Shown piece by piece: positions 6,997 to 24,696 of a stretch of 64,000 bases of DNA. The DNA comes from a virus. The stretch covers positions 35,650 through 99,649 of the IMG/VR virus record IMGVR_UViG_3300037044_000228. One strand, given 5' to 3'. A model generated the notes under the pieces. It saw only the letters and a list, made by a program, of their open reading frames with translations. It searched no databases and was not told where the DNA came from. A program made the position numbers and the translations under genes. How positions within the stretch are numbered: the first letter of the stretch is position 1; each line of letters starts with the position of its first letter.

Positions 6997-8683
6997 GTGG
7001 CTGGCGAGCGAGCAGGGGCGTATCGACGTCGACCGCGAGATCTGTCGCCGGTCCATGATCGCCTTCGTGCGCAAGGCCTGGCACATTCTCGAACCGAGCA
7101 CGCCCTACGTCGAGGGCTGGGTTCTCTACGCGATCTGCGATCACTTGATGGCGGTGAGCCGCGGCGAGATCTCGCGCCTGCTCATCAACGTGCCGCCGGG
7201 CATGATGAAGTCGCTGCTCGTGTCGGTGTTCTGGACCGCTTGGGAGTGGGGTCCCCTCGGCGCGCCCGGCATCAAGACGATCACGGCGTCCTACCAGATC
7301 GACCTTGCCATCCGCGATGCGCGGCGGCTACGCATGCTGGTCGAAAGCGAGTGGTTCCAGGCGCGCTGGCCGCTGGCGATGGCGTCGGACCAGAACCAGA
7401 AGACCCGCTTCGAGAACGTCAAGACCGGCTTCCGCGCGGCCAAGCCCATCACGTCGCTCACCGGCGATCGCGGCCACCGTCTCATCATCGACGACCCGCA
7501 CTCCATCAAGACGGCGGAAAGCGACGCACAGCGCAACGAGGCGGTGCGCGAGTTTCGCGAAGCCGCGCCGAGCCGCATGGTCGATCCGACCAAGTCAGCG
7601 ATCGTCGTCATCATGCAGCGGATCCACCAGGGCGATGTGTCCGGTGAGATCATCGACCGCATCGGCGGTTACGAGAAGCTGATTCTGCCCATGGAGTACG
7701 ATGTCGAGCGTCCGTGCACGACGTCGATCGGCTTTAAGGATCCGCGCACCGAGGATGGCGAGCTTCTCTTTCCCGAGCGCTTTCCGGCCGAAGTTGTGGA
7801 GCGCGACAAGGCGGTGCTCGGTCTCTATGCGAGCGCGGGCCAGTTCCAGCAGGCGCCGTCGCCGCGCGCCGGCGGTCTCTTCATCAAGTCCAAGGTCGGC
7901 GTCATCGCCGCGGTCCCGGCGGGCTCCGTGCGCGTGCGCAAATGGGACTTGGCGGGAACCGAGAAGGGCGTGAACAAGAAGGGCGTCGCGAACGATCCGG
8001 ACTTCACGGTCGGCCTGCTCATGGCGAAGACCACCGACGGGCGCAGCATCGTCGAAGACGTCGTGCGGCTGCAGGCCTCTCCCTTCGACGTCGAACAAGC
8101 GGTGCTGCGCACGGCGCAGCAGGACCGCGCGGCGCATGGCAATTCCGTCGTCGTGCATCTCAACATCGATCCGGCGCAGGCGGGCATCCACCAGGCCAAC
8201 ACCTACACCAAGCTGCTCAACGGCTTCATCGTGAAGATGGAGCCCGAGCGCGGGTCCAAGGAGTACCGCGCATTTCCCGTCGCGGCCCAGGTCGAAGCGG
8301 GAAACGTCTTCATGGTTCCAGGGCTGTGGAACGCGAAGTTCCTCGAAGAGATCGGGCTCTTTCCGCAGGGTCGCTACAAGGACCAGGTCGACGCACTCAG
8401 CGGCGCCTACAACTTTATGAACAATCCGATGGACGGCCAGCACTTCTGGGACTGGATGATGAAGGCTGTCGCAGAGCAGGAAGCCGCGAAGGCCGAGGCG
8501 CGTGCGGAAGCGCCGGTCGACCGCGTGCCGATGCACCCGCCGGTCGGCGTGCTGTCTGCGACCGGGCGGATGGGCGACGGCTACAATCTCGATAAGCACG
8601 GCGTCATGTGGGTCAAACCGGACGACGCTCTGATCTTCGCGCGCGCAGGCTTCAGGCGCGTCGAAATCCAACAGGCTGCGTGA
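6944..8683 (+). CDS. terL: terminase large subunit
   Basis: LLINVPPGMMKS Walker A, IIDDPH Walker B, MQRIH, WDLA and FPQGRYKDQVDA nuclease motifs. Confidence 0.95.
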   Translation: MPNSLSSIKSQAPQHSAEWLASEQGRIDVDREICRRSMIAFVRKAWHILEPSTPYVEGWVLYAICDHLMAVSRGEISRLLINVPPGMMKSLLVSVFWTAWEWGPLGAPGIKTITASYQIDLAIRDARRLRMLVESEWFQARWPLAMASDQNQKTRFENVKTGFRAAKPITSLTGDRGHRLIIDDPHSIKTAESDAQRNEAVREFREAAPSRMVDPTKSAIVVIMQRIHQGDVSGEIIDRIGGYEKLILPMEYDVERPCTTSIGFKDPRTEDGELLFPERFPAEVVERDKAVLGLYASAGQFQQAPSPRAGGLFIKSKVGVIAAVPAGSVRVRKWDLAGTEKGVNKKGVANDPDFTVGLLMAKTTDGRSIVEDVVRLQASPFDVEQAVLRTAQQDRAAHGNSVVVHLNIDPAQAGIHQANTYTKLLNGFIVKMEPERGSKEYRAFPVAAQVEAGNVFMVPGLWNAKFLEEIGLFPQGRYKDQVDALSGAYNFMNNPMDGQHFWDWMMKAVAEQEAAKAEARAEAPVDRVPMHPPVGVLSATGRMGDGYNLDKHGVMWVKPDDALIFARAGFRRVEIQQAA

Positions 8684-9501: not shown

Positions 9502-12500
9502 GTGATGTCGAGCGACGCGCCGCGAGCGCAAACCGGGGGCAGGGCGTTCGCGCTTTCCCCGACCGTTGTGCAGGTCCGCTTTGGCGACACGCCGATGATG
9601 GCGCCCGGCGCCGGCAATGCTGCGGCCGACTGGTTCGGCCCGCTTTCTCCGATGAAGCCCGCTGCCCCGCCGTTCGTTACGGGCCGGCGCTTCGACTATC
9701 AGTCCGGCTACAACCTGCAGACCCGGGCGCGGCCCGGCGAGCTCGGCTTCGACCAGCTGCGCGCGTTCGCCGACGCCTACGACATTCTCCGGCTCGTGAT
9801 CGAGACCCGCAAGAGCCAGATGTCGCGTCTGAAATGGGCCATCCTGCCGCGCGCGCGGCCCGATGCGGCGACCATGAAGGAGGTCCAGACCGACCATCTC
9901 AACCCGATCTGCAAGCAGATCACGGACTTCCTGCGCCGCCCCGATCGCCGCCTGTTCTGGAACGACTGGCTGCGCATGGCGCTCGAGGATCTCTTCGTTC
10001 TCGATGCGCCCGCGATCTGGAAGCGGCGCAACCGCGCGGGCCAACTCTACGCGCTTGAGATCATCGACGGCGCGACCATCAAGCCGATCATCACCGAAGC
10101 GGGGCGCCAGCCCGAGCGTGGCCCCGCGTTCCAGCAGATCCTCAAGGGTCTTCCGGCGGTGGAATACGACTCGCGCGATCTGATGTACCTTCCGCTCAAC
10201 CGCAGACCGCACAAGGTCTATGGGTACGGTCCGGTCGAACAGATCATCATGACCGTCAACATCGCGCTCAAGCGCCAGATCTGGCAGCTGCAGCACTGGA
10301 CGGAAGGCAACCTGCCGCAAGCGCTTATCGGCGTCCCGGAAAGCTGGACGCCTGAACAGATCAGCGCGTTCCAGACCAACTTCGACGACCTGCACACCGG
10401 CAACATGGCCGAGCGGCGTCGTGCGCGGTTCGTGCCGGCGGCGTCGGCGAAGAGCTACACGCCCACGCACAACGACAGTGAGATGTTCGGTCGCGGCGAA
10501 GAGTGGCTGGCGCGCGTCGTCTGCTATGCGATGGGCGTCGATCCCACGCCGTTCATCCAGAGCGTGAACCGCGCGACGGCGGAAAGCGCAGCAGAAGAAG
10601 CGATCAAGGACGGCATCGCGCCCGTCCAAAGCTGGGTCAAGAACCTCGTCGACGGCGTCATCATCGACGAGTTCGGCACAAACGAAGTCGAGTTCGTCTG
10701 GCAGGACGACACGATCGCCGATCCGGAGAAGCTCACGAAGGTGATCTGCTTGCAGGTCGAGTCGGGGCTGATCTCGCTCAACGAGGCGCGCGCCGAACTC
10801 GGCAAGACGCCTGTGGATCACGCCGCGTTCAACGTGCCGATGGTGAAGACGGGCGTTGGCTACGTGCCGGTCGAACCGCCCGCGCAAGCCGACGGCCTGG
10901 GCAACATGATGGGCCCGGGCGGCGAGAACCTCGGACCGGCGCCCGCGCCAGGCGGCTTCGTCGGCCCGGGCGGTGAGATGCTTGCGCCGCCGGAAGGCGC
11001 GGCTGCGGGCGGTGAGAACGTGGCGCCGGCTGATGACGCGGGCGCGGAACCAGGCGCGGGGGCTGACGCGGAGCCGCCGCCAGACGATGAACCGCCGGAA
11101 GGTGGCGGTCCTGCTGGCGGCGGAGGCGCGCTCCCGGGCGACAACGGCGGCGGTGGCGGACCGGCCCCCGCAGCGGGCGACGACGAAGCCGCTGCTGCGG
11201 CGGCGGCCATGAGCGACGACGACCTCGCGGCAGTCGAAGAGGAAATGGCGGCGCAGGGGATCGATGTCGCCGATGCGGGCGACGGCGAGGCCGAGAGCCA
11301 GGCCGATCTCTTCGCAGCCGATGAAGACCGCGTCGTGCCTGCGGGCGCGATGACGGCAGATCAGATCGACGACGGCGGCGACGTGCGCAGCGAAACGCCC
11401 GGCGCCAACGTCGCGCCGGCGGACGTTCCCGGCGAGGGCGGCGCTGCTGGCGTGGAGGCGGAAGCCGCACCGACGGATGAACCTGGGGATGGCGACGACG
11501 AACCGCAACCGCCGCGCCCGCCGAGCAAGCGTGACGTGCGACGCGCGGCGCTTGATCGACTCGGTGCGCTTGGCGCGCTGCGTCGCGGCGAACCGGCTGG
11601 CGATCTGGCGAAGGCTGCAGAGCGCGGCGCGGACCCCGGCAAGAACGAGCGCGGGTCTGCGCGCATCTCGCGCAAGAAGGGCGGGGCGCCTTACGGCGTC
11701 AATGAGCGCGGCGACTGGCGCGACGTCAAGAGCCCGCGCATGATCCGTGGCACGCCGCGTCGCGCGCCCGATGGCAGCGGCCCGATCAATCGCGACGAAG
11801 CAGCGCTCGACGAGATGTTCAACCGCGTCACTGCCGAAAAGGAAGCGGCGCGTGATCGCAAGGCCCGGCGTGCGCAGCAACGCATGGGCGGACGTCGTTA
11901 CCTGCACCCGGATCGCACGGCGAGCGGCCGCGCCGAGATCGTGAAGGGCTTCGGCGTTCATGGCTTCTGGAACGGCACGGAGCCGCACCGGGGCGGCGGT
12001 GGCGCGCGTGGCGGATCAAGGCGCGGCGCGCAAGCGGGCGTCGGCGGCGGCGCTGCGAGCGGCGGCGCGGAAGCGAAGATCGCGGCGCATCGGGTGGCGC
12101 AACGCGCGGCGGCGACCATCGCGGCGTCAGCTGCTGCGGCTGCACCGCCGCGTCCGTCTGTGGGCGAAGGCCTTACCAGGCTCGGGCGCGGACGCTCCAA
12201 GGACGTCTATGCGCACCCGACCAACAAGAACCGCGTCATCGTTTCGATGCAACGCCACGCAGCGACCGAAGCGTTTCTCGACTTCTCTCGCGCCGCGCAC
12301 GCCGCCAAGGCGCCGATCGCGCAGCATCTCCCCAACCCGTCGGCGATCAAGGTCGAGGCGGGCGGCGTGACGTTCCAGACAGCACGCCTGCAACCGAACA
12401 CGACGCCGGTGCGCATCGGGCGCGATGAGAACGGCTTCTATCTCAACGGCCTGCCGAAGACCCACCCGCAACATGCGCCGCTGCTCGCGACCGTGACCGC

Positions 12501-13095
12501 GCTCGACAGCTATCTCAAGCAGGCGCTCCCGGGATCGCGGCACTACTTCGATCTGAGTGCGCAGAACTTCATGGTCACGCGCTCCGGCAAGATCGTGATG
12601 AACGATCCCGTCGAGGGCGGCGCGGCGATCCAGGCGCGCGCCATGGCGCCGAGCTTTCCCGCAGCGCCAGCGCGTGCGCCGGCGAGACCGAAGGCCGCTT
12701 CCGCGCCGCGTCCTGCAGCGGCGAACGCGGCTGCGGCTGCGGCCGCACAACCAGCAGCACGGCCCGCACGCGCGACGCCCACGAAGGCCGAGCAAACGCG
12801 CGCGGCGCAGTTCCGCGCCTCGGCGGGCAACGGTCTGCCTGAGTGGATGACCATGGGCACGCGGCCCGCGAAACTCGCGACGATGCGTTGGGCGGCGAAG
12901 GGCGATCCGGCGGCGATCGCGTCGCGACTGCGCTCCCTGCCGCGCGAGATCGACTTCCAGCGCCAGACGCTCGAGCGGGCGCCGAAGAGCCATCAAGCAG
13001 TGGAACGTCGTCGACTCGCGAAGCTGGAAGCCGAGCATGCCGCGTTGCGCGCCGCGCGATCGGCGTCGCGTGGCGGCGGCGGACCGGCGCGGTGA
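9502..13095 (+). CDS. portal protein with long C-terminal extension (acidic linker, tag, kinase-like domain)
   Basis: Portal core LEDLFVLDA...IDGATIKP...YGYGPVEQ...NRATAE...SLNEARAELG, followed by about 740 extra residues. Confidence 0.9.
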   Translation: MMSSDAPRAQTGGRAFALSPTVVQVRFGDTPMMAPGAGNAAADWFGPLSPMKPAAPPFVTGRRFDYQSGYNLQTRARPGELGFDQLRAFADAYDILRLVIETRKSQMSRLKWAILPRARPDAATMKEVQTDHLNPICKQITDFLRRPDRRLFWNDWLRMALEDLFVLDAPAIWKRRNRAGQLYALEIIDGATIKPIITEAGRQPERGPAFQQILKGLPAVEYDSRDLMYLPLNRRPHKVYGYGPVEQIIMTVNIALKRQIWQLQHWTEGNLPQALIGVPESWTPEQISAFQTNFDDLHTGNMAERRRARFVPAASAKSYTPTHNDSEMFGRGEEWLARVVCYAMGVDPTPFIQSVNRATAESAAEEAIKDGIAPVQSWVKNLVDGVIIDEFGTNEVEFVWQDDTIADPEKLTKVICLQVESGLISLNEARAELGKTPVDHAAFNVPMVKTGVGYVPVEPPAQADGLGNMMGPGGENLGPAPAPGGFVGPGGEMLAPPEGAAAGGENVAPADDAGAEPGAGADAEPPPDDEPPEGGGPAGGGGALPGDNGGGGGPAPAAGDDEAAAAAAAMSDDDLAAVEEEMAAQGIDVADAGDGEAESQADLFAADEDRVVPAGAMTADQIDDGGDVRSETPGANVAPADVPGEGGAAGVEAEAAPTDEPGDGDDEPQPPRPPSKRDVRRAALDRLGALGALRRGEPAGDLAKAAERGADPGKNERGSARISRKKGGAPYGVNERGDWRDVKSPRMIRGTPRRAPDGSGPINRDEAALDEMFNRVTAEKEAARDRKARRAQQRMGGRRYLHPDRTASGRAEIVKGFGVHGFWNGTEPHRGGGGARGGSRRGAQAGVGGGAASGGAEAKIAAHRVAQRAAATIAASAAAAAPPRPSVGEGLTRLGRGRSKDVYAHPTNKNRVIVSMQRHAATEAFLDFSRAAHAAKAPIAQHLPNPSAIKVEAGGVTFQTARLQPNTTPVRIGRDENGFYLNGLPKTHPQHAPLLATVTALDSYLKQALPGSRHYFDLSAQNFMVTRSGKIVMNDPVEGGAAIQARAMAPSFPAAPARAPARPKAASAPRPAAANAAAAAAAQPAARPARATPTKAEQTRAAQFRASAGNGLPEWMTMGTRPAKLATMRWAAKGDPAAIASRLRSLPREIDFQRQTLERAPKSHQAVERRRLAKLEAEHAALRAARSASRGGGGPAR
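11944..12056 (+). repeat. tag repeat copy 1 (KGFGVHGFWNGTEPHRGGGGARGG..RGAQAGVGGGA)
   Basis: Near-identical DNA at 14294-14353 and 21314-21426. Confidence 0.95.
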
Positions 13096-13448
13096 GGAAA
13101 ATTGCGCTAAACGCACATTTCTAACGCGCGTTAACCAGTCGTCCACCACTGTCGCTGCATAAGGGCATCATGCGCAGCGTGCGACAGGGGCTAAGGCCTC
13201 CCGCGCGGCGCAGTCCCCCAGAGAATCGAGCCGATCGCACCCAGCCCGCCGCGGAGCGCGCTGGCGTCGACGTTTGCGATCGAGCGCCCGCCGATCGGGG
13301 CACACACTTCGGCATGGCTGGTGACAGTTCCCGGCGCGACCGCGATCTGCGCCGCGTATGCAGGGATAAACCCGGCCTGCCGATCCTTACCGACGCGCGG
13401 CGTCCACTACGGCGACGTGAGGGCTTGCAGGTCCCTTTCGCGCCCAAC

Positions 13449-13599
13449 GGTTTCTGCGGCGGCGTGGAAGGGAACACGCATCGGCCCGTGCGGTGACGTG
13501 CGGTGTTCGAGGGCCAAGGGCTCGCGTGGGCTGCTCTGCCCATAGAGCACGCGAGTAAGCCAGCTCCTTAGCCGGGGTAACGTCCGGCCCGTAGAATCC
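13449..13599 (+). ncRNA. tRNA-like structured RNA (candidate)
   Basis: Closing stem TTCTGCGG/CCGTAGAA, D-like arm GCGTG-gaagggaa-CACGC, T-like arm GCCGGG-gtaacg-TCCGGC, internal hairpins; lies in a roughly 530-bp gap with no credible CDS. Confidence 0.5.
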
Positions 13600-13630
13600 C
13601 ACACCCACACCTGACACACGCGAGGCGAAC

Positions 13631-14386
13631 ATGCGCAAGGATGCGACGTTCGCCGCCCCTGCGTCAGCGACCACCGGTCTCGCGGCGCACGATCTCGAGG
13701 GGCAGGGTCGCAATCAGCGACGGCTCGCGCGTCTCGCGGCGCGGCGTGCGGATCCATCTTCGGGCGAGACGCGGATGGTGCTGCGTCCCGTCGCTGACGT
13801 GAACCCAATCACATCGGAAGTGTTCAACGATCTTGAGCCGCCGGAAGCGATCACGCTCCGGCCGGGCTGGGATCCCATCTCCGAGATCCCGGTCGCCGAC
13901 ACCGACACCATCGTCGACGTAGTGAGCGCGCTCGAGCAGTGCGTGCCGGCATGGCGCATACACCCTGAAACGCTCCCGCTCGTCGCGGTCCCGCGCGGCG
14001 AGATCGTCGCGCTGCAGGCGGGCGTGAAGGCCGAGAAGGTGGCGGGCATCCAGGCCAAGGCGGCGCGCGGCGACCGCAGCGGACCGCGACCGGTCGGCGT
14101 CCAGTTCAACGGGCGCACCTATGTGCGGGACGGCCACCACCGTACGATCGCGGAGCTCCGCGACGGCGCGAAGGCGGTCGAGATGCGCGTGGCGGTGATC
14201 GCCGAAGCCAAATCCCTTTCTACTCCTTCCGGGGGCAAAGACATGACCACGAGCGCGTTCGCGTCGGATATCAAGCGCGCGAGCGCCTTCGCCAAGGGTT
14301 TCGGCGTCCACGGCTTCTGGAACGGCACTGAGCCGCACCGGGGCGGCGGTGGCGGCGGCGCAGCGGACTCAGCGCGTGACGCGTGA
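13631..14386 (+). CDS. ParB-like domain protein ending in a leader plus tag (possible internal start at 14243)
   Basis: GAGG RBS; IVALQ...YVRDGHHRT ParB/Srx-like motif; ends MTTSAFASDIKRASAFAKGFGVHGFWNGTEPHR. Confidence 0.7.
   Translation: MRKDATFAAPASATTGLAAHDLEGQGRNQRRLARLAARRADPSSGETRMVLRPVADVNPITSEVFNDLEPPEAITLRPGWDPISEIPVADTDTIVDVVSALEQCVPAWRIHPETLPLVAVPRGEIVALQAGVKAEKVAGIQAKAARGDRSGPRPVGVQFNGRTYVRDGHHRTIAELRDGAKAVEMRVAVIAEAKSLSTPSGGKDMTTSAFASDIKRASAFAKGFGVHGFWNGTEPHRGGGGGGAADSARDA
14294..14353 (+). repeat. tag repeat copy 2
   Basis: aagggtttcggcgtccacggcttctggaacggcactgagccgcaccggggcggcggtggc. Confidence 0.95.
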
Positions 14387-15617
14387 AGTGCAGGATCTGG
14401 TGAACCGGCGCGCGAGCGGCGACAACCCTCTCGAGAACAAGCGCCCGGCGGATTATGCCGAGCGCAAGGCGTTCGTCGACTCGATGGCGCGGGGCTCTGC
14501 GCGCGACAATGGCAGGGCGGAGACGCGAGCGCAGCGCGCCGAATCCCGGCAACGGGCGATCGAGTCAGGACGTGCGAAGCCGTCAACGCAAGGGATACTT
14601 CCCAACCGGGGCGGTCAGCGCGCTATCGCCAACCAGGCGCGCCAGCAAGCGAAGGCCGATCGCGACGACCAGTTCCGGTCGGAGCACAACGCGGAGAGCG
14701 CGCTACGCTCGACGAGTTTCGGTCGCGGACGCGAGAGCGGTTCTGCGCGCCGGTCCGATGTCGAAGTGGCGTCCATCAATACCGCGGCAGCCACGCGCGC
14801 CGCGCGCAACGCCGAACGCCGCGAGCGCGTCGCCGACTATCTGCGCGAGCGTGGCGGGCGTCCGAAGCCGAAGAACGGCGGCGCCATCGAGAGCGCGGCG
14901 GTACGGATCGCGACACGCGAGAACGCGAAGCAGACCGCGCGCGCCGAGCAGCTGGAAGCGCGCGCCGAGAGCGCCCGGGCGCGCATGCAAGCCGCACCCG
15001 GCGGATCGTCACAGCGGATTCGTCTCAGCCAGGAGGCAGACCGGCTCAGGGCGCAGGCGCAACGCGCCCGCGATGCTGCGGAGAGCGCAGCGAACGTCGC
15101 TGGCCTTACGCGCGCGCCTGCGGCGGCGGCGCCGTCAACCGCGCCCACAACGCCGGTGCGACTCCGCGATCTCGGTCTTACGACGACAGCGCCGGCAGCG
15201 GCGAGCGCTGCGCCAGCCGCTGGCGGCAAGTTCAACGTCCAGAGCGAACTCCGCCGGCTCGAAGAGGGCGGTGCGCCCGGCACTTACTCGCCGGCTCAAC
15301 GGAGCGCACTCCGTCAAGAGATCAACGAGGCTTTGGCGAGCGCGAACAACCGTGTGACCATCGGACAAAGTGGCGACGGCGGTGGCGGACGGGCGGCGGC
15401 TCAGGCGCAACGTCTGCAACAAATCGAACGAGACCTCGCTAAACCTGCAACCACCGTCACGCGCGCCGCCGACCGCGCGGTGGACCGCGCCGCAGCCAAG
15501 CATGGCGTCGACACCGACATCGCGCGCGGCATCGCGGACGTGGCGCGGCGCGCCAATCCGCGCGCGAGCAACCGCGAGATCGAACGCCAGATCCGCGAAT
15601 ACGCGGGCCAACAGTAG
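14349..15617 (+). CDS. Arg/Ala-rich basic protein, probably the out-of-frame continuation of tag copy 2
   Basis: 422-aa ORF in the +1 frame whose annotated GTG start lies inside the tag's GGC run; shares a motif with 21260-22777. Confidence 0.7.
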   Translation: MAAAQRTQRVTREVQDLVNRRASGDNPLENKRPADYAERKAFVDSMARGSARDNGRAETRAQRAESRQRAIESGRAKPSTQGILPNRGGQRAIANQARQQAKADRDDQFRSEHNAESALRSTSFGRGRESGSARRSDVEVASINTAAATRAARNAERRERVADYLRERGGRPKPKNGGAIESAAVRIATRENAKQTARAEQLEARAESARARMQAAPGGSSQRIRLSQEADRLRAQAQRARDAAESAANVAGLTRAPAAAAPSTAPTTPVRLRDLGLTTTAPAAASAAPAAGGKFNVQSELRRLEEGGAPGTYSPAQRSALRQEINEALASANNRVTIGQSGDGGGGRAAAQAQRLQQIERDLAKPATTVTRAADRAVDRAAAKHGVDTDIARGIADVARRANPRASNREIERQIREYAGQQ

Positions 15618-15733
15618 GCCGTAGTAGGCCGTAGGCAGCAAGCCGATCGCGGCGACGCCACCGCCACACACACACCAACAACCAGAAGGCAGCAAGGCCC
15701 CGCGCGACATGCGCGAGCCCATAGGAGAGCCGC

Positions 15734-18289
15734 ATGTCCAAGACCAATCTTGCCGTCGCAGCGCCGGCGCTCGCGATGTTCGTTCCCATCACGAAGGTCG
15801 ATGAAGAAAAGCGCCTCGTCTATGGGCGCATCACGGCGGAAAGCGTCGACCGCTCGAACGAGATCCTCGACTATGCGGCGTCCAAGCCGCACTTCGAGAA
15901 GTGGTCGCAGGGCTTTTCCGATGCGACCGGCGGGAAGTCGAAGGGCAACCTGCGCGCGATGCACAAGAACGTGAGCGCGGGCAAGTTCACCGAGATCGTC
16001 TTCAACGACGACGCCAAGGAGATCCACGGCGTCGCGAAGGTGGTCGACGATAACGAGTGGCAGAAGGTGCTCGAGGGCGTTTACACCGGTTTCTCGATCG
16101 GTGGAAAGTACGCCTCGCGCGCGCCCGACGCCGTGGAGAAGGGCAAGACCCGCTATGTGGCGCTGCCCGGTGAAGTGTCGCTCGTCGACACACCCTGCCT
16201 GCCGATCGCGACCTTCGAGTTCGTGAAGGCCGACGGCGCGTCCATGCAAAAGAACTTCGTGCCGTGGCAACCCGACAACAACACCCTGTCGGTGCGGGCG
16301 CGCGAGCTCGCCAAGGCCGCAGGCGATGAGACTGCGTGGCCCGACCACATCGGCGCCGCGCGCGAGGATCTGATCGCCAAGCGCTTCGCGGCATCGTCTG
16401 CCGAAGAGGGTGCGGCCCAGGAAAACCCCGCGACCGGCGCGGGCGGTGCGGGTGGCGAAGCGGCAGGCGAGGGCGCTGCAGCCGATGTCGCTGCTGCTGC
16501 GGCCGCTGCGGCGGACGTCGCCAAGCGCGATGAAGGTCCGAGCGCAGCCGAGCTTGGCGTGACGCAGGAATGGAAGGCCCCCGACGGGCAAGTCTTCCTT
16601 ACAAAAGCCGATGCGATGCGCCATGCATCGTCCCTCAGCCGCAATCCCGTCGCCGATGCGCTCGCGCGCGCCGATGCGGTGATGAAGGGCACAGTCGTGG
16701 CGGGCGACTATGGCGATGTCGCCTACGCCGACACCGGACTTCTCAAGGACGCCAAGCCGCGCTTTCCCATCGACTGCCCGCTGAATGTGCGCGCCTCGTG
16801 GGCGCATTTCTGCAAGGGCGCCGGCGACATGGGCTACGCCGAAGCAGAACTCACCAAGATCGCGACCGCGATCGCAACCGCATGGGTGGACATCGTCAAC
16901 CCGAACGGCCCGCCGTCGGTGGAGCAGATGGACGCCGTCGCCGATGTGGGCCTGTTTACCGATGCGCTCGCTGTGCTCGGCAAGCGCGCCTATCTCAACA
17001 CGCGTGATGGCGGCGGGAACGGCAGCTACACCGGATCCATGGCGGAAGCCTGCAGCCCGTGGAGCCATCAAGGCACGGGTCTCAACTTCGTGCACCAGAT
17101 CGCCTCACTCGTGAGCGATGCGGTGCGCGCGTCCAACCAGGCCGCGCAACTTGACGGCGAAGACAGCCCGATCGCAGCGCAGTCGCGCGACATGCTCGCG
17201 GCGACCGCGACGCTGCTCGCGGAAGCCACACACGGCGAAGTGGCGCGCATCCTCGACGAAGTGGAAGCGTTCGACGGCGATCCCGATGCGGAGGGCATGG
17301 AAGAGTTCGCCGACATGGAGGACGCCCAGAAGCTCGCGGCCGACATCGTCGATCTCGTGAAGGCCGACGACGTGCTTCTCGATGCGATGGATGAGATCGC
17401 CGAGCAGCGCGAGGCTGGCTATCTCGTCAAGTTCCAGGAGTGCGTCGGCGCGCTTCCGGCCGACCGCAGCGACGACGCGGCGGACACGCTGGATCTCGTC
17501 GGCGGCGGGTTGAGCAAGATGGCGGACGCTGCGGCGCCGGCCTTCCTGTCACGCGGCCTGCTCGCCATCGCGAAGATGAGCGATCACGTCGCGTCGTTCT
17601 CCGATCTCGTCGCCGGACTGCGCGAATCCGGTCTCGCAAAAGGGACCGACCCGCTTCTGGTGGCGAACGATATTGTGGAGACCCTCGGCCAGATCGTCAT
17701 CGCCATGGCGCATGACGAAGTCGCCGAGATCCATGGCGAGATCGACGTCACGAAACTCGATGCGGCGGACCAGTACGGCAAGGCGGCAGGCGAGCTCTTC
17801 GAACTCGTGAAGGCCGACACCGAAACACTTGAGAAGGTGGGCGCGCGCAACAGCAAGACCGACAAGGCCATGATCCAGTCCATCCACGACTACGCCGAAA
17901 AGCTCGGCGCGGCGTGCGGCGTGGAGAAGGCCGCAGGCGGCGAGGGGGAGGGCGATCTAGCGAAGGCGGACGATCCGGTGAAGGCCGAGAACGCGGCGCT
18001 CAAGAAGAGCGTCGACGAAGCGGTCGAGGGCATCAAGAAGCTCACCGACAAACTCGCCGAGCAGGACGCGACGATCAAGAAGCTGAGCGAACAGCCGCAG
18101 CAGGGCGGACCGGTGCGCACCGATTTGAACAAGGGCGGCGGTGGCGCAAGCGGCGTCGATCAAGAGCAGCTGACCGCGTACCTCGCGAAGTTCGCGAAGA
18201 TGACGCCCGATCAACAGGCGACTGAAGTCATCAAGATGCAGCAGCTGCAGCCGCAGTCGTTCACCGCGCGCATGGCCCCGGCAGGCTGA
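15734..18289 (+). CDS. prohead protease/scaffold (XkdF-like protease, DUF6582-like domain, coiled coil)
   Basis: ITKVDEEKRLVYG...NLRAMH...WQKVLEGVYTGFSIGG...EVSLVD; YADTG...RFPID...VRASW; AGGAG RBS. Confidence 0.85.
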   Translation: MSKTNLAVAAPALAMFVPITKVDEEKRLVYGRITAESVDRSNEILDYAASKPHFEKWSQGFSDATGGKSKGNLRAMHKNVSAGKFTEIVFNDDAKEIHGVAKVVDDNEWQKVLEGVYTGFSIGGKYASRAPDAVEKGKTRYVALPGEVSLVDTPCLPIATFEFVKADGASMQKNFVPWQPDNNTLSVRARELAKAAGDETAWPDHIGAAREDLIAKRFAASSAEEGAAQENPATGAGGAGGEAAGEGAAADVAAAAAAAADVAKRDEGPSAAELGVTQEWKAPDGQVFLTKADAMRHASSLSRNPVADALARADAVMKGTVVAGDYGDVAYADTGLLKDAKPRFPIDCPLNVRASWAHFCKGAGDMGYAEAELTKIATAIATAWVDIVNPNGPPSVEQMDAVADVGLFTDALAVLGKRAYLNTRDGGGNGSYTGSMAEACSPWSHQGTGLNFVHQIASLVSDAVRASNQAAQLDGEDSPIAAQSRDMLAATATLLAEATHGEVARILDEVEAFDGDPDAEGMEEFADMEDAQKLAADIVDLVKADDVLLDAMDEIAEQREAGYLVKFQECVGALPADRSDDAADTLDLVGGGLSKMADAAAPAFLSRGLLAIAKMSDHVASFSDLVAGLRESGLAKGTDPLLVANDIVETLGQIVIAMAHDEVAEIHGEIDVTKLDAADQYGKAAGELFELVKADTETLEKVGARNSKTDKAMIQSIHDYAEKLGAACGVEKAAGGEGEGDLAKADDPVKAENAALKKSVDEAVEGIKKLTDKLAEQDATIKKLSEQPQQGGPVRTDLNKGGGGASGVDQEQLTAYLAKFAKMTPDQQATEVIKMQQLQPQSFTARMAPAG

Positions 18290-18456
18290 GCGCTACCGGC
18301 TGACGCCATCCACCCGATCAACCGCACAACCAGACGACCGCGCGCGCCGGTGATGCCGGCGCACGCGCACCGAGAACCAGCGCCACCCGGCGCCGGCCCA
18401 TCCCATCGGCAGGGGGACTGCCGAAACAACCATCAACACGACGACAGGAGACGATC

Positions 18457-19977
18457 ATGCCCGATGGGATGACGACGATCGAACAACCGACGAACGCCAT
18501 GGAGGCGATTCTCGCGGTTCTCGCGAAGGCCAATGAGATCACCGACCCGCGCATGGCGCACCTGAACCTCGCCAAAGCGACGTTCGGCCAGGCGGGCGGA
18601 CCGACGACCGGTCTCACTTTCTACGATCTCGAGCCGGGCGCAAAGCTCATGTACCCGGTGCTCACGCCGCTCCGTAACGCCATCCCCCGCGTGAGCGGAA
18701 AGGGCGGCGTCGAGGCGTCGTGGCGCGCGATCACGGCCATCAACACGCAGAATATCCAGATCGGCGTGTCGCAGGGCCACCGTGGCGGCGTGGTCGCCGT
18801 GCAGACGAAAGACTACACCGCCGCCTATCGCGGCATCGGCACGGAAGCGTCCGTCAACTTCGAGGCGCAATACGCAGGGCAGGGCTTCGAGGACATTCGT
18901 GCGCTTGGCGCGCGGACCGGTCTCGAGTCCCTCATGCTCGGCGAAGAAGCGGTCATCCTCGCGGGCAACGGCGGCAACACGTTCGGCGTGACGCCGACGC
19001 CTGTCTGCGTCGGCTCCAACACCGGCGGCTTCCTCGCCAACGCCGCCTACAACGTCTATTGCGTCGCGCTGACCTATGCCGGTTATGTCGCGTCGACAGT
19101 GGCGAGCGGCGTTGTGGGCCAGGTCACGCGCACGAACGCCGACGGCTCCACCGACACGTTCGGCGGCGGCTCGGCGAACAAGTCCGTTGCGGGCACGGCG
19201 ACGATCTCCGGCGGCGGCGTCGGCAAGATCACCGCGACGCTTACCGGCGTCCCCGGCGCTTCGGGCTACGCATGGTTCTGGGGCACGGCGGGCAGCGAAC
19301 TGCTGGGCGCGATCACGACGGTTCCCACTGTCGTCATCAACGCGGCAGCGACCGGTTCGCAGAACGCTTCGGCGATCACGGGTGACAACTCCGTCAACTC
19401 GACGATCTTCTCGGGCATGATCCAGATCGCGGCCACGTCGGGCTCGGGCTCGTATGTCAAGGATCTCGGCGGTGCGGGCTTCACGTCCGACAACGCCGGC
19501 GGCATCGTCGAAATCGACGATATGCTCAAGCACTTCTGGGACAACTATCGTCTGTCCCCCGATGAACTGTGGGTCTCCGCTCAGGAGCTCAACAACATCG
19601 GCAAGAAGATCCTCGGCGCGGGCGGCGCTGGCACCGGTGCGTTCCGCATCAACATCAACCAGAGCCAGGGTGCGATCGGCGGCGGCATCGCCGTGGCGTC
19701 GTACCTCAACAAGTTCAGCATGGCGGGCGCGAAAGTGCTCGACATCAAGCTGCACCCGAACATGGCTCCCGGCATGGTCTTGGCGGTGACGAAGCGGCTC
19801 CCGTATCCGCTCTCCGACGTCAACAACCTGATGCAGATCCGCTGCCGTCAGGACTACTACCAGATCGAATGGCCGCTCATCACGCGCCAGTACCAGTACG
19901 GCGTCTATGCGGACGAAGTGCTGCAGCACTACTTCCCGCCGTCCCTGGGCATCATCCAGGGCGTCGGCAACCTCTAG
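18457..19977 (+). CDS. major capsid protein
   Basis: 506 aa after the scaffold; YDLEPGAKLMYPVLTPLRNAIPR...YQYGVYADEVLQHYFP. Confidence 0.85.
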   Translation: MPDGMTTIEQPTNAMEAILAVLAKANEITDPRMAHLNLAKATFGQAGGPTTGLTFYDLEPGAKLMYPVLTPLRNAIPRVSGKGGVEASWRAITAINTQNIQIGVSQGHRGGVVAVQTKDYTAAYRGIGTEASVNFEAQYAGQGFEDIRALGARTGLESLMLGEEAVILAGNGGNTFGVTPTPVCVGSNTGGFLANAAYNVYCVALTYAGYVASTVASGVVGQVTRTNADGSTDTFGGGSANKSVAGTATISGGGVGKITATLTGVPGASGYAWFWGTAGSELLGAITTVPTVVINAAATGSQNASAITGDNSVNSTIFSGMIQIAATSGSGSYVKDLGGAGFTSDNAGGIVEIDDMLKHFWDNYRLSPDELWVSAQELNNIGKKILGAGGAGTGAFRININQSQGAIGGGIAVASYLNKFSMAGAKVLDIKLHPNMAPGMVLAVTKRLPYPLSDVNNLMQIRCRQDYYQIEWPLITRQYQYGVYADEVLQHYFPPSLGIIQGVGNL

Positions 19978-20160
19978 GCAGGGGTGTTCGGTGCGCGCGG
20001 GTTTCGATCACCCGCGCGCACATTCACAACGATAAGGCCCGCCGCCGCCACGCGGCGGGCCGATCGTCGGGGCAAACCCGGCGATCGGAACGTGGCGCAA
20101 AGGGACTGTCCAATCATTTCCGGCCGCAGCGGCAGACCGCGCGCCGATAGGAACCACACC

Positions 20161-20517
20161 ATGAAAATCCAGACTCCCGAAGGCTTCTCCGGCGCGAGCT
20201 ACGAGCATGCGCGCTACACTGCGGACGAGAACGGTGTGATGACAGTCGACGTGCCCGCGCATGCGCAGCACTTCCTCACGCACCCGGCCTATGGCGGATC
20301 GTTTACGCCCTACATTCCGCCCGCCGAACCGGTGGTTCCGGCAGCGCCCGCGCCTGCCGTTTCAGCGGCTCCCGCCGGCGCGCACTTCGACGCGTCCGGC
20401 GCGGGCGATACCGCCGGTGACGGCGACGGCGCGGGCGAAGCCGCGGGCGAGGGCGGCGCAGGCGATGGCGGCGAAACACCGAACACCGGCGGACGCAAGG
20501 CCAAGGCGAAGACCTGA
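20161..20517 (+). CDS. small head-associated protein
   Basis: ATG 20161 with AGGA RBS; follows the capsid gene; low-complexity C-terminus. Confidence 0.65.
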   Translation: MKIQTPEGFSGASYEHARYTADENGVMTVDVPAHAQHFLTHPAYGGSFTPYIPPAEPVVPAAPAPAVSAAPAGAHFDASGAGDTAGDGDGAGEAAGEGGAGDGGETPNTGGRKAKAKT

Positions 20518-20604
20518 GCCAAACGCGACACCAAACACCAACCGACGCGCCGGGCCGTGGAGTGATCTGCGGTCCGGCCTCGTGCGCACTGCGAAGAGGG
20601 CGTC

Positions 20605-21249
20605 ATGGCCGATCCACTCATCGACCTCGCCAACCTTGCGGCGGTGAAGACGTACCTGACAGCAGCGGGGCTCGCGCAGCCCGACGATGCGGTGCTCGAG
20701 CGGCTTGTGACAGCGGTGAGCCAGCAGATCCAGAGCCATCTCAATCGCCGGCTGGTGCGCCAGTCCTACACGCAGACCTTCAACGGCCATGGGCGCAACG
20801 CGCTCTATCCGCCGCAATTCCCGATCCAGGCGGTGTCATCGGTCACGGTGAACGGGCGGGTGGTGAGCGCGGCGAACGGACCGACGGGCGCGGGCTATGT
20901 GTTTTCCGAGCAAGCGATCTATCTGCGCGGCGGCGCGTTCGATCGCGGTATCCAGAACGTCGTCATCGCCTACGAAGCGGGCTACAACCCGCTCCCTGCC
21001 GATCTTGTGCAGGCACTCCACGGCGCGATCGGCGCGCTGACATCTGACGAGTTTTCCGTCACCGGGCAGGGCATCCCCAAGGGGGTGTCTTCGTACTCGG
21101 CTGGCGACCATTCCATTTCTTTCGGCGGCGGCGCAGCGGCGGCGGGCTCGAGCGCGAGCGGCGATGCGATGCTGCTGCCGCTTGATGGCACGACGATCGC
21201 GCAGCTGGCGCCGTATCGGCGCGTGCACGCTGTCGATCTTGGCCGGTGA
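20605..21249 (+). CDS. head-tail connector/adaptor protein
   Basis: LAAVKTYL...DAVLERLVTAVS...NVVIAYEAGY..PADL pattern. Confidence 0.75.
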   Translation: MADPLIDLANLAAVKTYLTAAGLAQPDDAVLERLVTAVSQQIQSHLNRRLVRQSYTQTFNGHGRNALYPPQFPIQAVSSVTVNGRVVSAANGPTGAGYVFSEQAIYLRGGAFDRGIQNVVIAYEAGYNPLPADLVQALHGAIGALTSDEFSVTGQGIPKGVSSYSAGDHSISFGGGAAAAGSSASGDAMLLPLDGTTIAQLAPYRRVHAVDLGR

Positions 21250-21259
21250 GGCGAAACCC

Positions 21260-22777
21260 ATGAGCGACCGCAAGACTTTCGCCAGCGCAGTGAACCGCGC
21301 GACAGCCTTCTCGAAGGGCTTCGGCGTCCACGGCTTCTGGAACGGCACGGAGCCGCACCGGGGCGGTGGTGGTGCGCGTGGCGGCGCGCGGCGGGGCGCG
21401 CAAGCGGGCGTCGGCGGCGGCGCTGCAACGCCTGTCGCCAGCGCAGGCGCGCAAGCCAAGGCCGATGCGGTGCGGGTCGCGCAACGGCAAGGTGCGGTGG
21501 AAGTGGCGCGTGCGCCGGCGACTCCAGCCGCAGCGTCGGCGCGTTTCAGTGCGCGGGATGAACTTTCGCGTCTGGAAGCGGGCGGTGCGCCGCGCAAACT
21601 CCGAACGCGCCAGCAGGAAGCGCTCATGCGCGAGGCGATCGCCACGAGTCGCGTGCGCAACAACGAAGACCCCAAGGTGAGCGCGATCATATCGTCGCTC
21701 GGCGGCAACAACGGTACGAAGCTCCCGATCTATGCGGGCGGTCCGAGACAGGCGCCTGCGCCGGCGCGTGCCGCCAGCGCGGCAGCGGCCGGACCGAACG
21801 CCGCGGCGATCGATCGCGTCGCCAACAACATGCACGATGCATGGCGCAAGGAGTTCGTCGCGGCCAATGGCGCCGGGGCGCAACGCTGGAAGCCGGTGAA
21901 CCCTGAGAGCGCGGCATGGATCGCGGCCAACCCGCGCGCGATTCCGAAGACCCAGATCCGGACCAATCCGGAGACCGGTCAGCAGGAAATCAACATCGCG
22001 GGGCTACGCAACAAGCAGCTTCCGCCGAACCAGCACGGCAAGGAAAACGCCGACGGCGCGCGTCATGCGGTCGAGACGGTCGCGCGCAATCCGCGCGCCA
22101 GCGTCGACGAGCATGCAGCGGCGGTGCATCAAGCGTGGCTCGCGCGGAACGGCTCATGGGCGCCGGCTTCGCAGAAGGTGCCCTACAATCGTCTGTCGGA
22201 TGCCGACAAGGAAAAGGACCGCGTTATCGTCCGCGCGGCCATGCGCGCGCTCGGCGTGAAGCCTGAGCCCACTACACCGGCGCGTGCGGCGGCGAACGCT
22301 GCGGCGGGCGCGGCTAGATCCAGCGCGAGCGGCGGCGCGACTTCCCTGTCAGCGGCTCGACGCACTCTCGACGAGGCGCAAGAGCGGTTCCGTGGCGCGT
22401 CTGCGACGTACCGCGACGGCGGCGGCAGTGCGGAATCGGTGGCGAACGCCAACCGCGCGCTGCAGAACGCACAGGCGGCATGGGCGCGCGCGCGCACCGA
22501 GAACGCGGCGCGGTCAACGGAGATCAAACGCGCGCCCGGCGAGAGCCGTACCGTGGCGTATCTGCGTGCGGCCGAGGGCAATCTCTCGAGCACACAACGG
22601 ATCGTGCAGTCCATGGCGTCGCAATCTCGAGCGGAAGTCGTCGCGGTCGCGCGCGAGCTCGGCTTGCCGGTGCGCGCCAACACCACGAAGGCGAACGCTC
22701 TCGCGATGATCTCTGGCCGTGCGGCTAAGAGCGAGTCCGACGCGGCGTTGAACGAGCGCATCCGCAACGGCGCGTGA
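21260..22777 (+). CDS. tagged basic protein with RyR-like domain (putative head cargo)
   Basis: ATG 21260 with GAGG RBS; leader plus tag; VHQAWLARN...KVPYNRLSDADKEKDR. Confidence 0.8.
   Translation: MSDRKTFASAVNRATAFSKGFGVHGFWNGTEPHRGGGGARGGARRGAQAGVGGGAATPVASAGAQAKADAVRVAQRQGAVEVARAPATPAAASARFSARDELSRLEAGGAPRKLRTRQQEALMREAIATSRVRNNEDPKVSAIISSLGGNNGTKLPIYAGGPRQAPAPARAASAAAAGPNAAAIDRVANNMHDAWRKEFVAANGAGAQRWKPVNPESAAWIAANPRAIPKTQIRTNPETGQQEINIAGLRNKQLPPNQHGKENADGARHAVETVARNPRASVDEHAAAVHQAWLARNGSWAPASQKVPYNRLSDADKEKDRVIVRAAMRALGVKPEPTTPARAAANAAAGAARSSASGGATSLSAARRTLDEAQERFRGASATYRDGGGSAESVANANRALQNAQAAWARARTENAARSTEIKRAPGESRTVAYLRAAEGNLSSTQRIVQSMASQSRAEVVAVARELGLPVRANTTKANALAMISGRAAKSESDAALNERIRNGA
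21314..21426 (+). repeat. tag repeat copy 3
   Basis: About 113 bp nearly identical to 11944-12056. Confidence 0.95.
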
Positions 22778-24507: not shown

Positions 24508-24696
24508 ATGCACCTGATCGTCACTGCGCCCTTCGCCAAGCATGCGATCGGCGAACACATCACCGACGCCGGCGAAGTGGCCGCGATCCTCGCCAGCGAG
24601 AACGTCGCGCACGTCGTCAAGACCGCAGCGCCGCCGGCCGCGCCGGCTGTCGACGTCAAGCCTGACACGCCGGCGCGCGCCCGGAAGACCTCGTAA
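24508..24696 (+). CDS. small hypothetical protein preceding sheath
   Basis: 62-aa ORF with GAGG RBS. Confidence 0.6.
   Translation: MHLIVTAPFAKHAIGEHITDAGEVAAILASENVAHVVKTAAPPAAPAVDVKPDTPARARKTS

What the first reader, a model, noticed from the sequence alone, without database searches (positions are those of the whole stretch)
11944..21426. Identical peptide tag (K|GFGVHGFWNGTEPHRGGGG) on three unrelated head-region cargos: candidate virion addressing/ejection system
Seen: the 19-aa motif KGFGVHGFWNGTEPHRGGG is encoded at 11944 (inside the portal extension), 14294 and 21314. Differences between copies in the core are synonymous (ggc/ggt, gtt/gtc, cat/cac, acg/act), so the peptide rather than the DNA appears to be conserved. 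Each copy follows a hydrophobic-x-Lys site (EIVK, AFAK, AFSK). Copies 2 and 3 also share a short leader (FASDIKRASAFAK / FASAVNRATAFSK). Downstream sequences differ: a kinase-like domain, an Arg/Ala-rich protein and a RyR-like protein. Established: phage heads can carry protease-matured internal proteins (T4 capsid-targeting sequence), and MuF or portal proteins can carry variable effector domains. Inference: the leader or portal fusion loads cargo into the prohead, the protease cleaves after Lys, and the exposed GFGVHGFW N-terminus acts as a shared ejection or DNA-piloting signal. The DNA repeat could also allow cargo shuffling by recombination.
Basis: partly seen in the sequence, partly recalled or inferred. 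Interest (0 to 1): 0.92.

Follow-up and report, generated by a model that had tools for sequence, protein, structure and literature searches.

The report
Shared tag on phage head cargo
A prophage writes the same 20-residue peptide, directly after a probable head-protease cutting site, into its portal protein and two other head-region proteins; this most likely marks protein modules that are loaded into the virus head, cut loose there and delivered with the DNA, but no experiment has shown it.

Summary
K-GFGVHGFWNGTEPHRGGGG is encoded three times (11944, 14294, 21314), and all six DNA differences are synonymous. One caveat: copy 2 ends 16 codons after the tag, and the Arg/Ala-rich ORF follows in the +1 frame.

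The region is a myovirus-like head module of an IMG/VR provirus. In about 5.8 billion proteins the tag occurs in only one other protein (P0010). There it joins a homologous ParB-like domain in frame to a 400-aa tail.

Eighty contigs related by capsid protein lack this tag. Twenty-five of them carry a different peptide ([QEH]-P-R...G-G-[QR]-[WF]) in the same slots: portal tail, ParB-like protein, small genes after the capsid gene. It precedes DddA-like, barnase-like and zeta-toxin domains, and some contigs hold orphan portal-3' cassettes.

Both tags follow hydrophobic-x-Lys. That site marks the capsid propeptide boundary in 21 of 21 relatives and is four times enriched in the scaffold.

Best reading (about 0.5): a lineage-specific junction tag of a protease-processed head-cargo system. 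The ejection-signal idea is untested.

Similar tags (DUF7211, HPR-type) were noted earlier by this scan on other DNA; this tag matches neither model. It is a new variant of a known kind.

The parts
9502..13095 (+). Portal gene (1197 aa). It has a portal core (about aa 60-470), an acidic Gly/Ala/Pro-rich spacer, a basic stretch, tag copy 1, and a 363-aa tail with a kinase-like lead.
   Evidence: Pfam Phage_portal 1.1e-17 and phrog_2662 5e-68. For the tail: Pfam YrbL-PhoP_reg E 0.0096, below cut-off, and an ESM Atlas lead to T7 kinase-family clusters, score 0.92. The AF2 model was poor.
11935..12003 (+). Tag copy 1: the EIVK site (11935-11946) followed by GFGVHGFWNGTEPHRGGGG (11947-12003).
12004..12057 (+). 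Gly/Arg block (ARGGSRRGAQAGVGGGAA) that follows tag copy 1. It is nearly identical after copy 3 and is partly kept in P0010.
13631..14386 (+). ParB-like protein (251 aa, DGHHR motif) that ends with the leader, tag copy 2 and 16 more residues.
   Evidence: tblastn to phage ParB-like nuclease proteins and to 'DNA methyltransferase/prohead protease' polyproteins, E 7e-7 to 8e-3. It is 52% identical to the N-terminal domain of P0010.
14258..14353 (+). Leader FASDIKRASAFAK (14258-14296) and tag copy 2 (14297-14353).
14349..15617 (+). Arg/Ala-rich ORF (422 aa) in the +1 frame relative to tag copy 2. It is either a broken fusion or a coupled overlapping gene. It shares a second motif (ELxRLExGGAP) with the third tagged protein.
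   Evidence: An in-frame GTG at 14388 lies 2 nt after the upstream stop (read from the sequence).
15734..18289 (+). Prohead protease (N-terminal about 175 aa) fused to the scaffold. It carries 15 hydrophobic-[AVS]-Lys sites.
   Evidence: phrog_9427 and phrog_34096 'head maturation protease', E 7.5e-9 and 5e-7. Pfam Peptidase_S78_2 E 4.5e-4, below cut-off. Enrichment is 15 observed against 3.8 expected, p<0.0005.
18457..19977 (+). Major capsid protein. The inferred maturation site lies after Lys40 (LNLAK|ATFGQ; Lys codon 18574-18576).
   Evidence: phrog_13692 5e-132. 58% identical to the capsid gene of Brevundimonas phage Polewnik. The boundary is conserved in 21 of 21 relatives.
20605..21249 (+). 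Head-tail adaptor, the gene upstream of the third tagged gene.
   Evidence: phrog_442 7e-27
21257..22777 (+). Third tagged gene (505 aa as called). Order: 19-aa leader, tag copy 3, Gly/Arg block, a disordered Ala-rich stretch, a RyR-repeat-like domain and a helical C-terminal part.
   Evidence: Gene call P0007. AF2 gives a leader helix and a tag at pLDDT about 30. RyR evidence: Pfam E 0.3, PDB phmmer E 0.06, Foldseek ranks 1 and 3, VIA Z 6.2-6.5 to B. thetaiotaomicron RyR over model residues 275-334.
21278..21427 (+). Leader FASAVNRATAFSK (21278-21316), tag copy 3 (21317-21373) and the Gly/Arg block (21374-21427).

Best explanation
The peptide is a lineage-specific junction tag of a head-internal cargo system.

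Proposed steps:
1. A carrier on the N-terminal side (the portal itself, a ParB-like domain, or a 19-aa helical leader) brings the polypeptide into the assembling prohead. This step is inferred.
2. The XkdF/HK97-type prohead protease cuts after the Lys of the hydrophobic-x-Lys site that immediately precedes the tag. This is inferred from site statistics and comparative data.
3. The cut frees tag, Gly/Arg linker and C-terminal module inside the capsid.
4. The freed module leaves with the DNA at infection. This step is inferred from analogy only.

The tag is an exposed linear motif in a disordered Gly-rich linker. It most likely serves as the P'-side docking or recognition element that makes these particular sites substrates of the protease, or that holds the module on the capsid interior.

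The shared DNA block also offers a recombination point for swapping C-terminal modules.
For: - The tag is under purifying selection as a peptide. Six of six differences are synonymous. It is about 17 of 20 identical in P0010, whose neighbouring ParB-like domain is only 52% identical.
- All copies sit in the head module.
- All four known copies follow hydrophobic-x-Lys.
- Hydrophobic-[AVS]-Lys occurs 15 times against 3.8 expected in the protease-scaffold (p<0.0005). The enrichment is specific to Lys, the reversed motif is not enriched, and the Polewnik scaffold also shows it (8 against 2.9).
- In 21 of 21 related capsid proteins a variable stretch of about 40 aa ends in hydrophobic-x-Lys, followed by an invariant [SAG]-(x)-T-F.
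- Related phages put a different tag in the same slots: portal tail, ParB-like polyprotein, genes after the capsid gene, and once just after the protease domain. In 37 of 40 unique cases it is preceded by hydrophobic-x-Lys.
- That other tag stands in front of DddA-like (1.8e-15), barnase-like (1.3e-6) and zeta-toxin (1e-15) domains.
- MuF-type portal fusions are also preceded by [MLF]-A-K.
- AF2 leaves the tag unstructured (pLDDT about 30) after a helical leader.
- Published precedents: the T4 capsid-targeting sequence with gp21 cutting at I/L-x-E (cited in PMC12991175), the P1 DarB 30-residue packaging signal (PMC9024508), and portal, MuF, ParB and kinase 'polyvalent' virion proteins (PMC5512222, PMC5576092).
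Against: - No proteomic or biochemical data exist for this phage or any close relative.
- The cleavage code is inferred from motif statistics. An amphipathic-helix bias in the scaffold is not fully excluded.
- Only two phages carry the tag, so comparative power for the tag itself is small.
- Copy 2 has no in-frame cargo, so cutting there would merely trim a 35-aa tail.
- The cargo domains are not recognisable toxins or enzymes by Pfam; the kinase-like and RyR-like calls are weak.
- The tag shows no detectable sequence similarity to the relatives' tag or to DUF7211. The equivalence is positional only.
Confidence: 0.5

Rival explanations
1. The tag is a pure docking peptide, a cargo-loading peptide in the manner of encapsulins. 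It binds the capsid interior, the scaffold or the portal and is not cut. The neighbouring Lys is part of the binding motif.
For: The tag is a short, conserved, unstructured motif in a flexible linker. It occurs at N-terminal, internal and C-terminal positions. Relatives have an analogous tag in the same slots.
Against: A portal-fused module needs no address label, yet it carries the tag. The hydrophobic-x-Lys site coincides with the capsid propeptide boundary and with the scaffold enrichment, which a binding-only model leaves unexplained.
Confidence: 0.2
2. The repeat is mainly a recombination junction, like the VENN or Rhs core-end motifs of polymorphic toxins. The shared DNA lets C-terminal cassettes move between carriers, and the peptide has no role of its own beyond being a tolerated linker.
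For: Copies 1 and 3 share about 114 nt at roughly 90% identity with sharp edges. Relatives carry tandem partial portal-3' copies with alternative tails, and the tags sit at the variable boundary. The C-terminal modules differ completely.
Against: All six core differences are synonymous, and the leader of copies 2 and 3 is kept as protein while the DNA has diverged. The peptide is kept in P0010 at a higher level than its flanking domain. No orphan cassettes are present in this window. This reading is compatible with, rather than an alternative to, a peptide function.
Confidence: 0.15
3. The tag acts after delivery. It would be a common motif that takes the injected modules to one host target, or that helps them or the DNA end through the tail and envelope.
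For: If cutting occurs after Lys, the tag stays on the released module as its new N-terminus in copies 1 and 3. The aromatic-rich core followed by an RGG-type block could bind a membrane or nucleic acid; this is inference only.
Against: No data of any kind. Copy 2 would leave the tag on a 35-aa peptide. Relatives use an unrelated sequence in the same slot, which fits co-evolution with a phage partner better than a conserved host target.
Confidence: 0.1
4. The proteins are not virion components. The tag would then be a shared regulatory, chaperone-binding or degradation motif of proteins that merely happen to be encoded in the head operon.
For: No direct evidence places any of the three in particles. 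The cargo domains are poorly annotated.
Against: One copy is covalently part of the portal. The equivalent slots in relatives hold MuF-, portal- and protease-linked modules.
Confidence: 0.05

Closest known systems
T4 capsid-targeting sequence on internal proteins IPI-III and Alt, removed by prohead protease gp21 at I/L-x-E (Mullaney and Black 1996, as cited in PMC12991175)
   Same: A short shared peptide on unrelated proteins that end up inside a myovirus head. It is coupled to a simple protease site that also processes the scaffold and capsid proteins.
   Different: The T4 signal is strictly N-terminal and is removed. Here the conserved peptide lies on the C-terminal side of the inferred cut, so it would stay on the module, and it occurs internally and near a C-terminus. 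The inferred site is hydrophobic-x-Lys rather than I/L-x-Glu, and the protease is XkdF/HK97-type rather than gp21-type. There is no sequence similarity.
P1 Dar system: the DarB N-terminal 30-residue packaging signal, and DdrB with a ParB-like domain (PMC9024508; PMC5512222)
   Same: A myovirus packages large effector proteins through a short signal, and a ParB-like domain protein is among the head-internal proteins.
   Different: No shared repeated peptide among the P1 Dar proteins has been reported. The homology of the window's ParB-like domain to DdrB was not tested.
MuF- and portal-linked polymorphic toxins and phage 'polyvalent proteins' (Jamet 2017, PMC5576092; Zhang 2012, PMC3482391; Iyer 2017, PMC5512222)
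   Same: A head-associated carrier (portal, MuF) is fused to variable C-terminal modules. ParB-like and kinase domains are typical modules. Cassette-like variation occurs, and relatives of this phage carry DddA-like, barnase-like and zeta-toxin modules.
   Different: In the passages I searched, these papers describe no conserved junction peptide or protease-site code. The window's own modules are not recognisable toxins, and no immunity gene is evident.
The [QEH]-P-R...G-G-[QR]-[WF] junction tag in contigs related by capsid protein, also noted by this scan elsewhere as W-x-P-x-x-[HQ]-P-R-x-x-x-G-[RK]-[FW] (e1-5354862)
   Same: It occupies the same slots (portal tail, after a ParB-like domain, small genes after the capsid gene), is preceded by the same hydrophobic-x-Lys, is followed by the same kind of Gly-rich stretch, and stands in front of variable modules.
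   Different: No detectable sequence similarity: an HMM built from 40 such tags scores the window's tags at noise level.
Pfam DUF7211 (PF23847), a head-module tag noted repeatedly by this scan
   Same: A short Gly- and aromatic-rich tag after a hydrophobic-x-His site on unrelated head-region proteins. By eye, F-G-V-[KH]-G-[MF]..W looks similar.
   Different: The PF23847 model finds nothing in this record even at E 10. The preceding residue here is Lys, not His.

Membership tests
T4-type capsid-targeting sequence / internal head proteins | The signal lies at the extreme N-terminus of the cargo | tested here: not met
   Only copy 3 is near an N-terminus, after a 19-aa leader. Copy 1 is at aa 815 of the portal and copy 2 at aa 222 of 251.
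T4-type capsid-targeting sequence / internal head proteins | The prohead protease removes the signal at a consensus site shared with scaffold and capsid proteins | tested here: inconclusive
   A shared hydrophobic-x-Lys site is supported statistically and comparatively. However, the conserved peptide lies after the site, not before it, and no cleavage has been observed.
T4-type capsid-targeting sequence / internal head proteins | The proteins are present in virions and are ejected | not testable with these tools
   This needs virion proteomics.
Portal/MuF-linked polymorphic toxins and polyvalent proteins | A head-associated N-terminal carrier domain (portal or MuF) is fused to a variable C-terminal module | tested here: met
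   The portal core is followed by a 727-aa extension. The tails of related portals differ completely after the junction.
Portal/MuF-linked polymorphic toxins and polyvalent proteins | The C-terminal module is a recognisable toxin or effector domain | tested here: inconclusive
   In the window only weak leads exist: a kinase-like lead (Atlas 0.92; Pfam E 0.0096) and a RyR-like lead (VIA Z about 6.3). Relatives have DddA-like, barnase-like and zeta-toxin domains.
Portal/MuF-linked polymorphic toxins and polyvalent proteins | A cognate immunity gene lies downstream of the toxin module | tested here: inconclusive
   A 108-aa ORF (13170-13496) follows the portal but matches no family. Nothing comparable follows the other two genes.
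Pfam DUF7211 (PF23847) | A match to the family model | tested here: not met
   The genome search with PF23847 on the whole record finds no match at E <= 10. hmmscan of the tag peptides at E <= 10 finds nothing.
[QEH]-P-R...G-G-[QR]-[WF] junction tag of related phages | Sequence match to a profile of the tag | tested here: not met
   An HMM of 40 unique tags run with --max gives a best window score of 4.7 bits, and that is not at a tag.
[QEH]-P-R...G-G-[QR]-[WF] junction tag of related phages | It occupies the junction after hydrophobic-x-Lys in the portal tail, the ParB-like protein and small head-module genes | tested here: met

The most novel reading that the evidence does not exclude
A large clade of alphaproteobacterial-type (pro)phages shares this capsid protein and the XkdF-like protease-scaffold. 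These phages may run a general, programmable cargo system with three elements: a hydrophobic-x-Lys protease code, an interchangeable prefix tag that co-evolves with a phage partner, and swappable effector cassettes hung on the portal, on ParB-like carriers or on short leaders, with orphan portal-3' cassette arrays. That would amount to a phage-capsid-delivered polymorphic effector system whose passengers can be read from sequence. The window's tag would be a second, independently evolved key for the same lock.
Probability: 0.35. Interest if true: 0.8.

Novelty: new variant of a known kind. Interest (0 to 1): 0.6.

Why it matters
If the reading holds, injected phage proteins could be recognised from sequence alone in this clade: a hydrophobic-x-Lys site plus a tag. 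These proteins include anti-defence factors, host-takeover enzymes and toxins.

It would also show that a portal can serve as a cleavable carrier for 12 copies of an enzyme module. It would give a short, portable handle (leader plus tag) for loading foreign proteins into a capsid.

Two unrelated tag sequences occupy the same slots in related phages. That offers a natural experiment on how such address labels co-evolve with their partner.

Tried and rejected
**Searches for the tag elsewhere**
- Exact peptide patterns (GFGVHGFWNGTEPH and HGFWNGTEP) found nothing in viral contigs or metagenome contigs.
- A profile of the tag against 1.84 billion representatives, and a word-indexed search of 5.8 billion proteins, found only the window's three proteins and P0010. 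P0009 and P0011 are unrelated repeat proteins.
- The search for related loci with the ParB-like-plus-tag alignment gave no relatives in viral or metagenome contigs, and only distant archaeal ParB-like hits in genomes.
- Megablast of the region against phage records found no match.

**Tests against known tag families**
- DUF7211 membership was rejected.
- Homology to the relatives' tag was rejected at the sequence level.

**Cargo annotation**
- The kinase-like tail has no PDB sequence hit, no phage tblastn hit and no homologue in the big protein search. Its single-sequence AF2 model has pLDDT 40 and is unusable. PF27024 is not in the local Pfam copy.
- An Atlas search on the tag region gave no usable hit.
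- P0005 and the tail of P0010 are not detectably related, so the frame break at copy 2 could not be resolved by homology.

**Other**
- The genome search 'relatives' is not available for a virus record.
- A literature search for the motif strings and for DUF7211 found nothing.

**Ideas considered from memory and not pursued for lack of any test here**
- resemblance of the FAS...K leader to the Prp-cleaved L27-type leader of Staphylococcus phage 80alpha;
- the N-G-T sequon as a glycosylation site;
- Asn-Gly self-cleavage;
- a Lys-Asn isopeptide link to the capsid.


Full report
**1. Observation**

The three copies are real. Translating around 11944, 14294 and 21314 gives the identical 20-mer K-GFGVHGFWNGTEPHRGGGG each time. 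A degenerate DNA pattern for the core finds exactly these three sites, with none in 100 shuffles. A search of the whole 99,649-base record finds no fourth copy.

The three copies differ at six positions. All six are third codon positions and all are synonymous. By my own count about 24% of single-base changes in these 20 codons would be synonymous, so six of six has P of about 2e-4.

Each copy follows a hydrophobic-x-Lys site (EIVK, AFAK, AFSK). Copies 2 and 3 share a 13-residue leader that is similar as protein and diverged as DNA. Copies 1 and 3 also share the next 18 residues, a Gly/Arg block. This gives about 114 nt of roughly 90% identical DNA with sharp edges on both sides.

One correction is needed. 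The frame of copy 2 stops at 14386, 16 codons after the tag. The 422-aa Arg/Ala-rich ORF (14349-15617) is in the +1 frame. GC3 moves from one frame to the other exactly at the Gly run. An in-frame GTG lies 2 nt after the stop. The region is therefore either a broken fusion or two coupled genes, and I could not decide which.

**2. Setting**

The window is part of an IMG/VR provirus record. The genes around the tags form a myovirus-like head and neck module:

| Coordinates | Gene |
|---|---|
| 6944-8683 | large terminase |
| 9502-13095 | portal |
| 15734-18289 | XkdF/HK97-type protease fused to a long scaffold |
| 18457-19977 | major capsid protein (phrog_13692) |
| 20605-21249 | head-tail adaptor |
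| 24542-26602 | tail sheath |

The nearest named phages are the Brevundimonas siphoviruses Polewnik and Strzyga, with 58% capsid identity. Polewnik's head module has none of the three tagged insertions, and its portal ends in a MuF-like domain instead.

**3. How widespread is the tag?**

It is very rare.
- Exact-peptide scans of viral and metagenome contigs found nothing.
- A profile of the tag against 1.84 billion representative proteins found only the window's three proteins and one other, P0010. A word-indexed search of 5.8 billion proteins gave the same result.
- Eighty contigs related by capsid protein lack it.

P0010 is a 637-aa protein from a 73-kb Logan contig. Its first 210 residues are 52% identical to the window's ParB-like protein. 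It then reads ...DVEK-GYGLHGFWNGTEPDRHGGGGG-RGGSRR... and continues in frame into an unrelated tail of about 400 aa. The tag is thus better conserved than the domain next to it. In that phage it is an internal junction, with no leader.

**4. What the relatives show**

A self-comparison of ORFs within each related contig found no copy of the window's tag. It did find a different shared peptide in 25 of 81 loci. Typical forms are K-YSPDQPRVPAGNPDGGQWT, K-AGFNPDEPRVPAGNPDGGQWT and K-xxxWDExKHPRWPxG..QGGRF.

This peptide occupies the same slots as the window's tag:
- It lies 25-40 residues after the end of the portal core, in front of portal tails of 60-560 aa that differ completely.
- It occurs in genes between portal and protease.
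- It occurs in small genes just after the capsid gene.
- In L031 it lies right after the protease domain. In the same locus it also lies after a ParB-like (DGNHR) domain, in a protein that continues into a zeta-toxin kinase and a MuF domain.

It precedes real effector domains: DddA-like deaminase (1.8e-15), barnase-like ribonuclease (1.3e-6) and zeta toxin (1e-15).

Several contigs carry tandem partial copies of the portal 3' end, and some of the capsid 3' end, each with a different tail. This resembles the orphan cassettes of polymorphic toxin loci.

An HMM built from 40 unique copies of this tag does not detect the window's tag. The Pfam DUF7211 model does not detect it either. The equivalence is one of position and context, not of demonstrable homology.

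**5. The Lys site**

- Hydrophobic-[AVS]-Lys occurs 15 times in the window's protease-scaffold against 3.8 expected (p<0.0005).
- The enrichment is specific to Lys and is absent for the reversed motif. It recurs in the Polewnik scaffold (8 against 2.9, p=0.007).
- In 21 of 21 related capsid proteins a variable N-terminal stretch of about 40 aa ends in hydrophobic-x-Lys. Conservation begins immediately after it with [SAG]-(x)-T-F. In the window this reads LNLAK|ATFGQ. That is what a propeptide boundary looks like.
- Thirty-seven of 40 unique tags in the relatives have hydrophobic-x-Lys 4-8 residues before the P-R.
- MuF-type portal fusions are also preceded by [MLF]-A-K.

Cutting after Lys by the prohead protease is therefore a well-supported inference. 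It has not been observed.

**6. The modules**

- The ParB-like call is supported by the DGHHR motif and by tblastn hits to phage ParB-like nuclease proteins and to 'DNA methyltransferase/prohead protease' polyproteins.
- The kinase-like call rests only on a sub-threshold Pfam hit to a kinase-clan family and an Atlas lead to T7-kinase-family clusters. No homologues were found, and the AF2 model was unusable.
- The RyR-like call has weak but consistent support: Pfam E 0.3, PDB phmmer E 0.06, Foldseek ranks 1 and 3, and VIA Z 6.2-6.5 at 20-23% identity to the Bacteroides RyR repeat over model residues 275-334.
- In that model the leader is a helix and the tag is unstructured, with pLDDT about 30.
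- The Arg/Ala-rich ORF and the RyR-like protein share a second short motif, ELxRLExGGAP. This shows that the +1 frame is truly coding there.

**7. Mechanism**

The most economical reading is a cut-and-tag junction. A carrier (portal, ParB-like domain or short leader) takes the chain into the prohead. The protease cuts after Lys. The tag, the Gly/Arg linker and the module are released inside the head.

The portal-fused copy argues that the tag is not just an address label, because that module is already tethered to the portal. The strict adjacency to the Lys site suggests a different role: recognition on the P' side, or retention after release. The replacement of the tag by another sequence in related phages points the same way, to a partner that co-evolves with the tag.

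The shared DNA block may in addition serve cassette exchange. I put about 0.5 on the cut-and-tag reading. The rivals are scored in their own sections.

**8. Relation to what is known**

- Capsid-targeting signals are established: T4, with gp21 cutting at I/L-x-E (cited in PMC12991175), and the 30-residue signal of P1 DarB (PMC9024508).
- Portal- and MuF-fused effector modules, ParB-like and kinase domains in virion 'polyvalent proteins', and MuF polymorphic toxins are also established (PMC5512222, PMC5576092, PMC3482391).
- In the passages I searched, none of these papers describes a conserved junction peptide tied to a protease-site code. The motif strings are absent from the literature library.
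- This scan has already noted similar tags on other DNA: DUF7211-type and HPR-type.
- This finding is therefore a new, very narrowly distributed variant of a kind of system that is known in outline and that the scan has met before.

Noticed in passing
L049:3711-5606, 6881-7948, 11538-12065, 18120-19250; also L052, L061, L068, L079, L084, L087: Twenty-five of 81 contigs related by capsid protein share a different junction peptide (hydrophobic-x-K ... [QEH]-P-R-x-P-x-G ... G-G-[QR]-[WF]). It recurs in several head-module ORFs of the same contig. Pfam has no model for it among the ORFs tested.
   Followed up: partly
L087:1-5555; L068:407-5275; L016, L029, L052: These loci hold tandem partial copies of the portal 3' region (80-98% identical over 45-220 aa). 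Each continues into a different tag variant and tail. L084, L086 and L087 also hold repeated capsid 3' fragments. They look like orphan cassettes for swapping portal tails. Metagenome assembly artefacts are not excluded.
   Followed up: partly
L079:11204-12343; L087:6890-7969; L031:1-2340: Tagged ORFs in relatives carry a DddA-like dsDNA deaminase domain, a barnase-like ribonuclease domain, and a ParB-like plus zeta-toxin plus MuF polyprotein.
   Followed up: partly
window 18457-18576 and the capsid genes of 21 related loci: The capsid N-terminus is variable for about 40 aa, then reads hydrophobic-x-Lys followed by an invariant [SAG]-(x)-T-F. This is a likely propeptide cleavage site for the whole clade.
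   Followed up: yes
window 15246-15290 and 21560-21604: The Arg/Ala-rich ORF and the RyR-like protein share a second short motif, [RK]F..[DS]EL.RLE.GGAP. A faint echo (RISRKKGGAP) lies in the portal tail at about 11680.
   Followed up: partly
L007:9661-11985 (Brevundimonas phage Polewnik): The annotated portal is a portal-MuF fusion. The MuF-like C-terminal domain is preceded by ...KMAK|ADG. L022 and L053 have the same layout.
   Followed up: partly
L049:5606-5950: A DUF6968 protein (3e-33) is encoded directly after the tagged portal tail. It may be an immunity or partner protein for that tail.
   Followed up: no
window 13096-13630: The gap between the portal and the ParB-like gene holds only a 108-aa ORF (13170-13496) with no family match. 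It could be a small partner or immunity gene, or non-coding.
   Followed up: no
L012:3403-4524 and L057:4104-4988: The tails after the tag contain a conserved ...HHIVEQT...NLVRIP..H..I.GWY... stretch. From memory this resembles HNH/EndoVII-type toxin motifs. Pfam gave no hit.
   Followed up: partly
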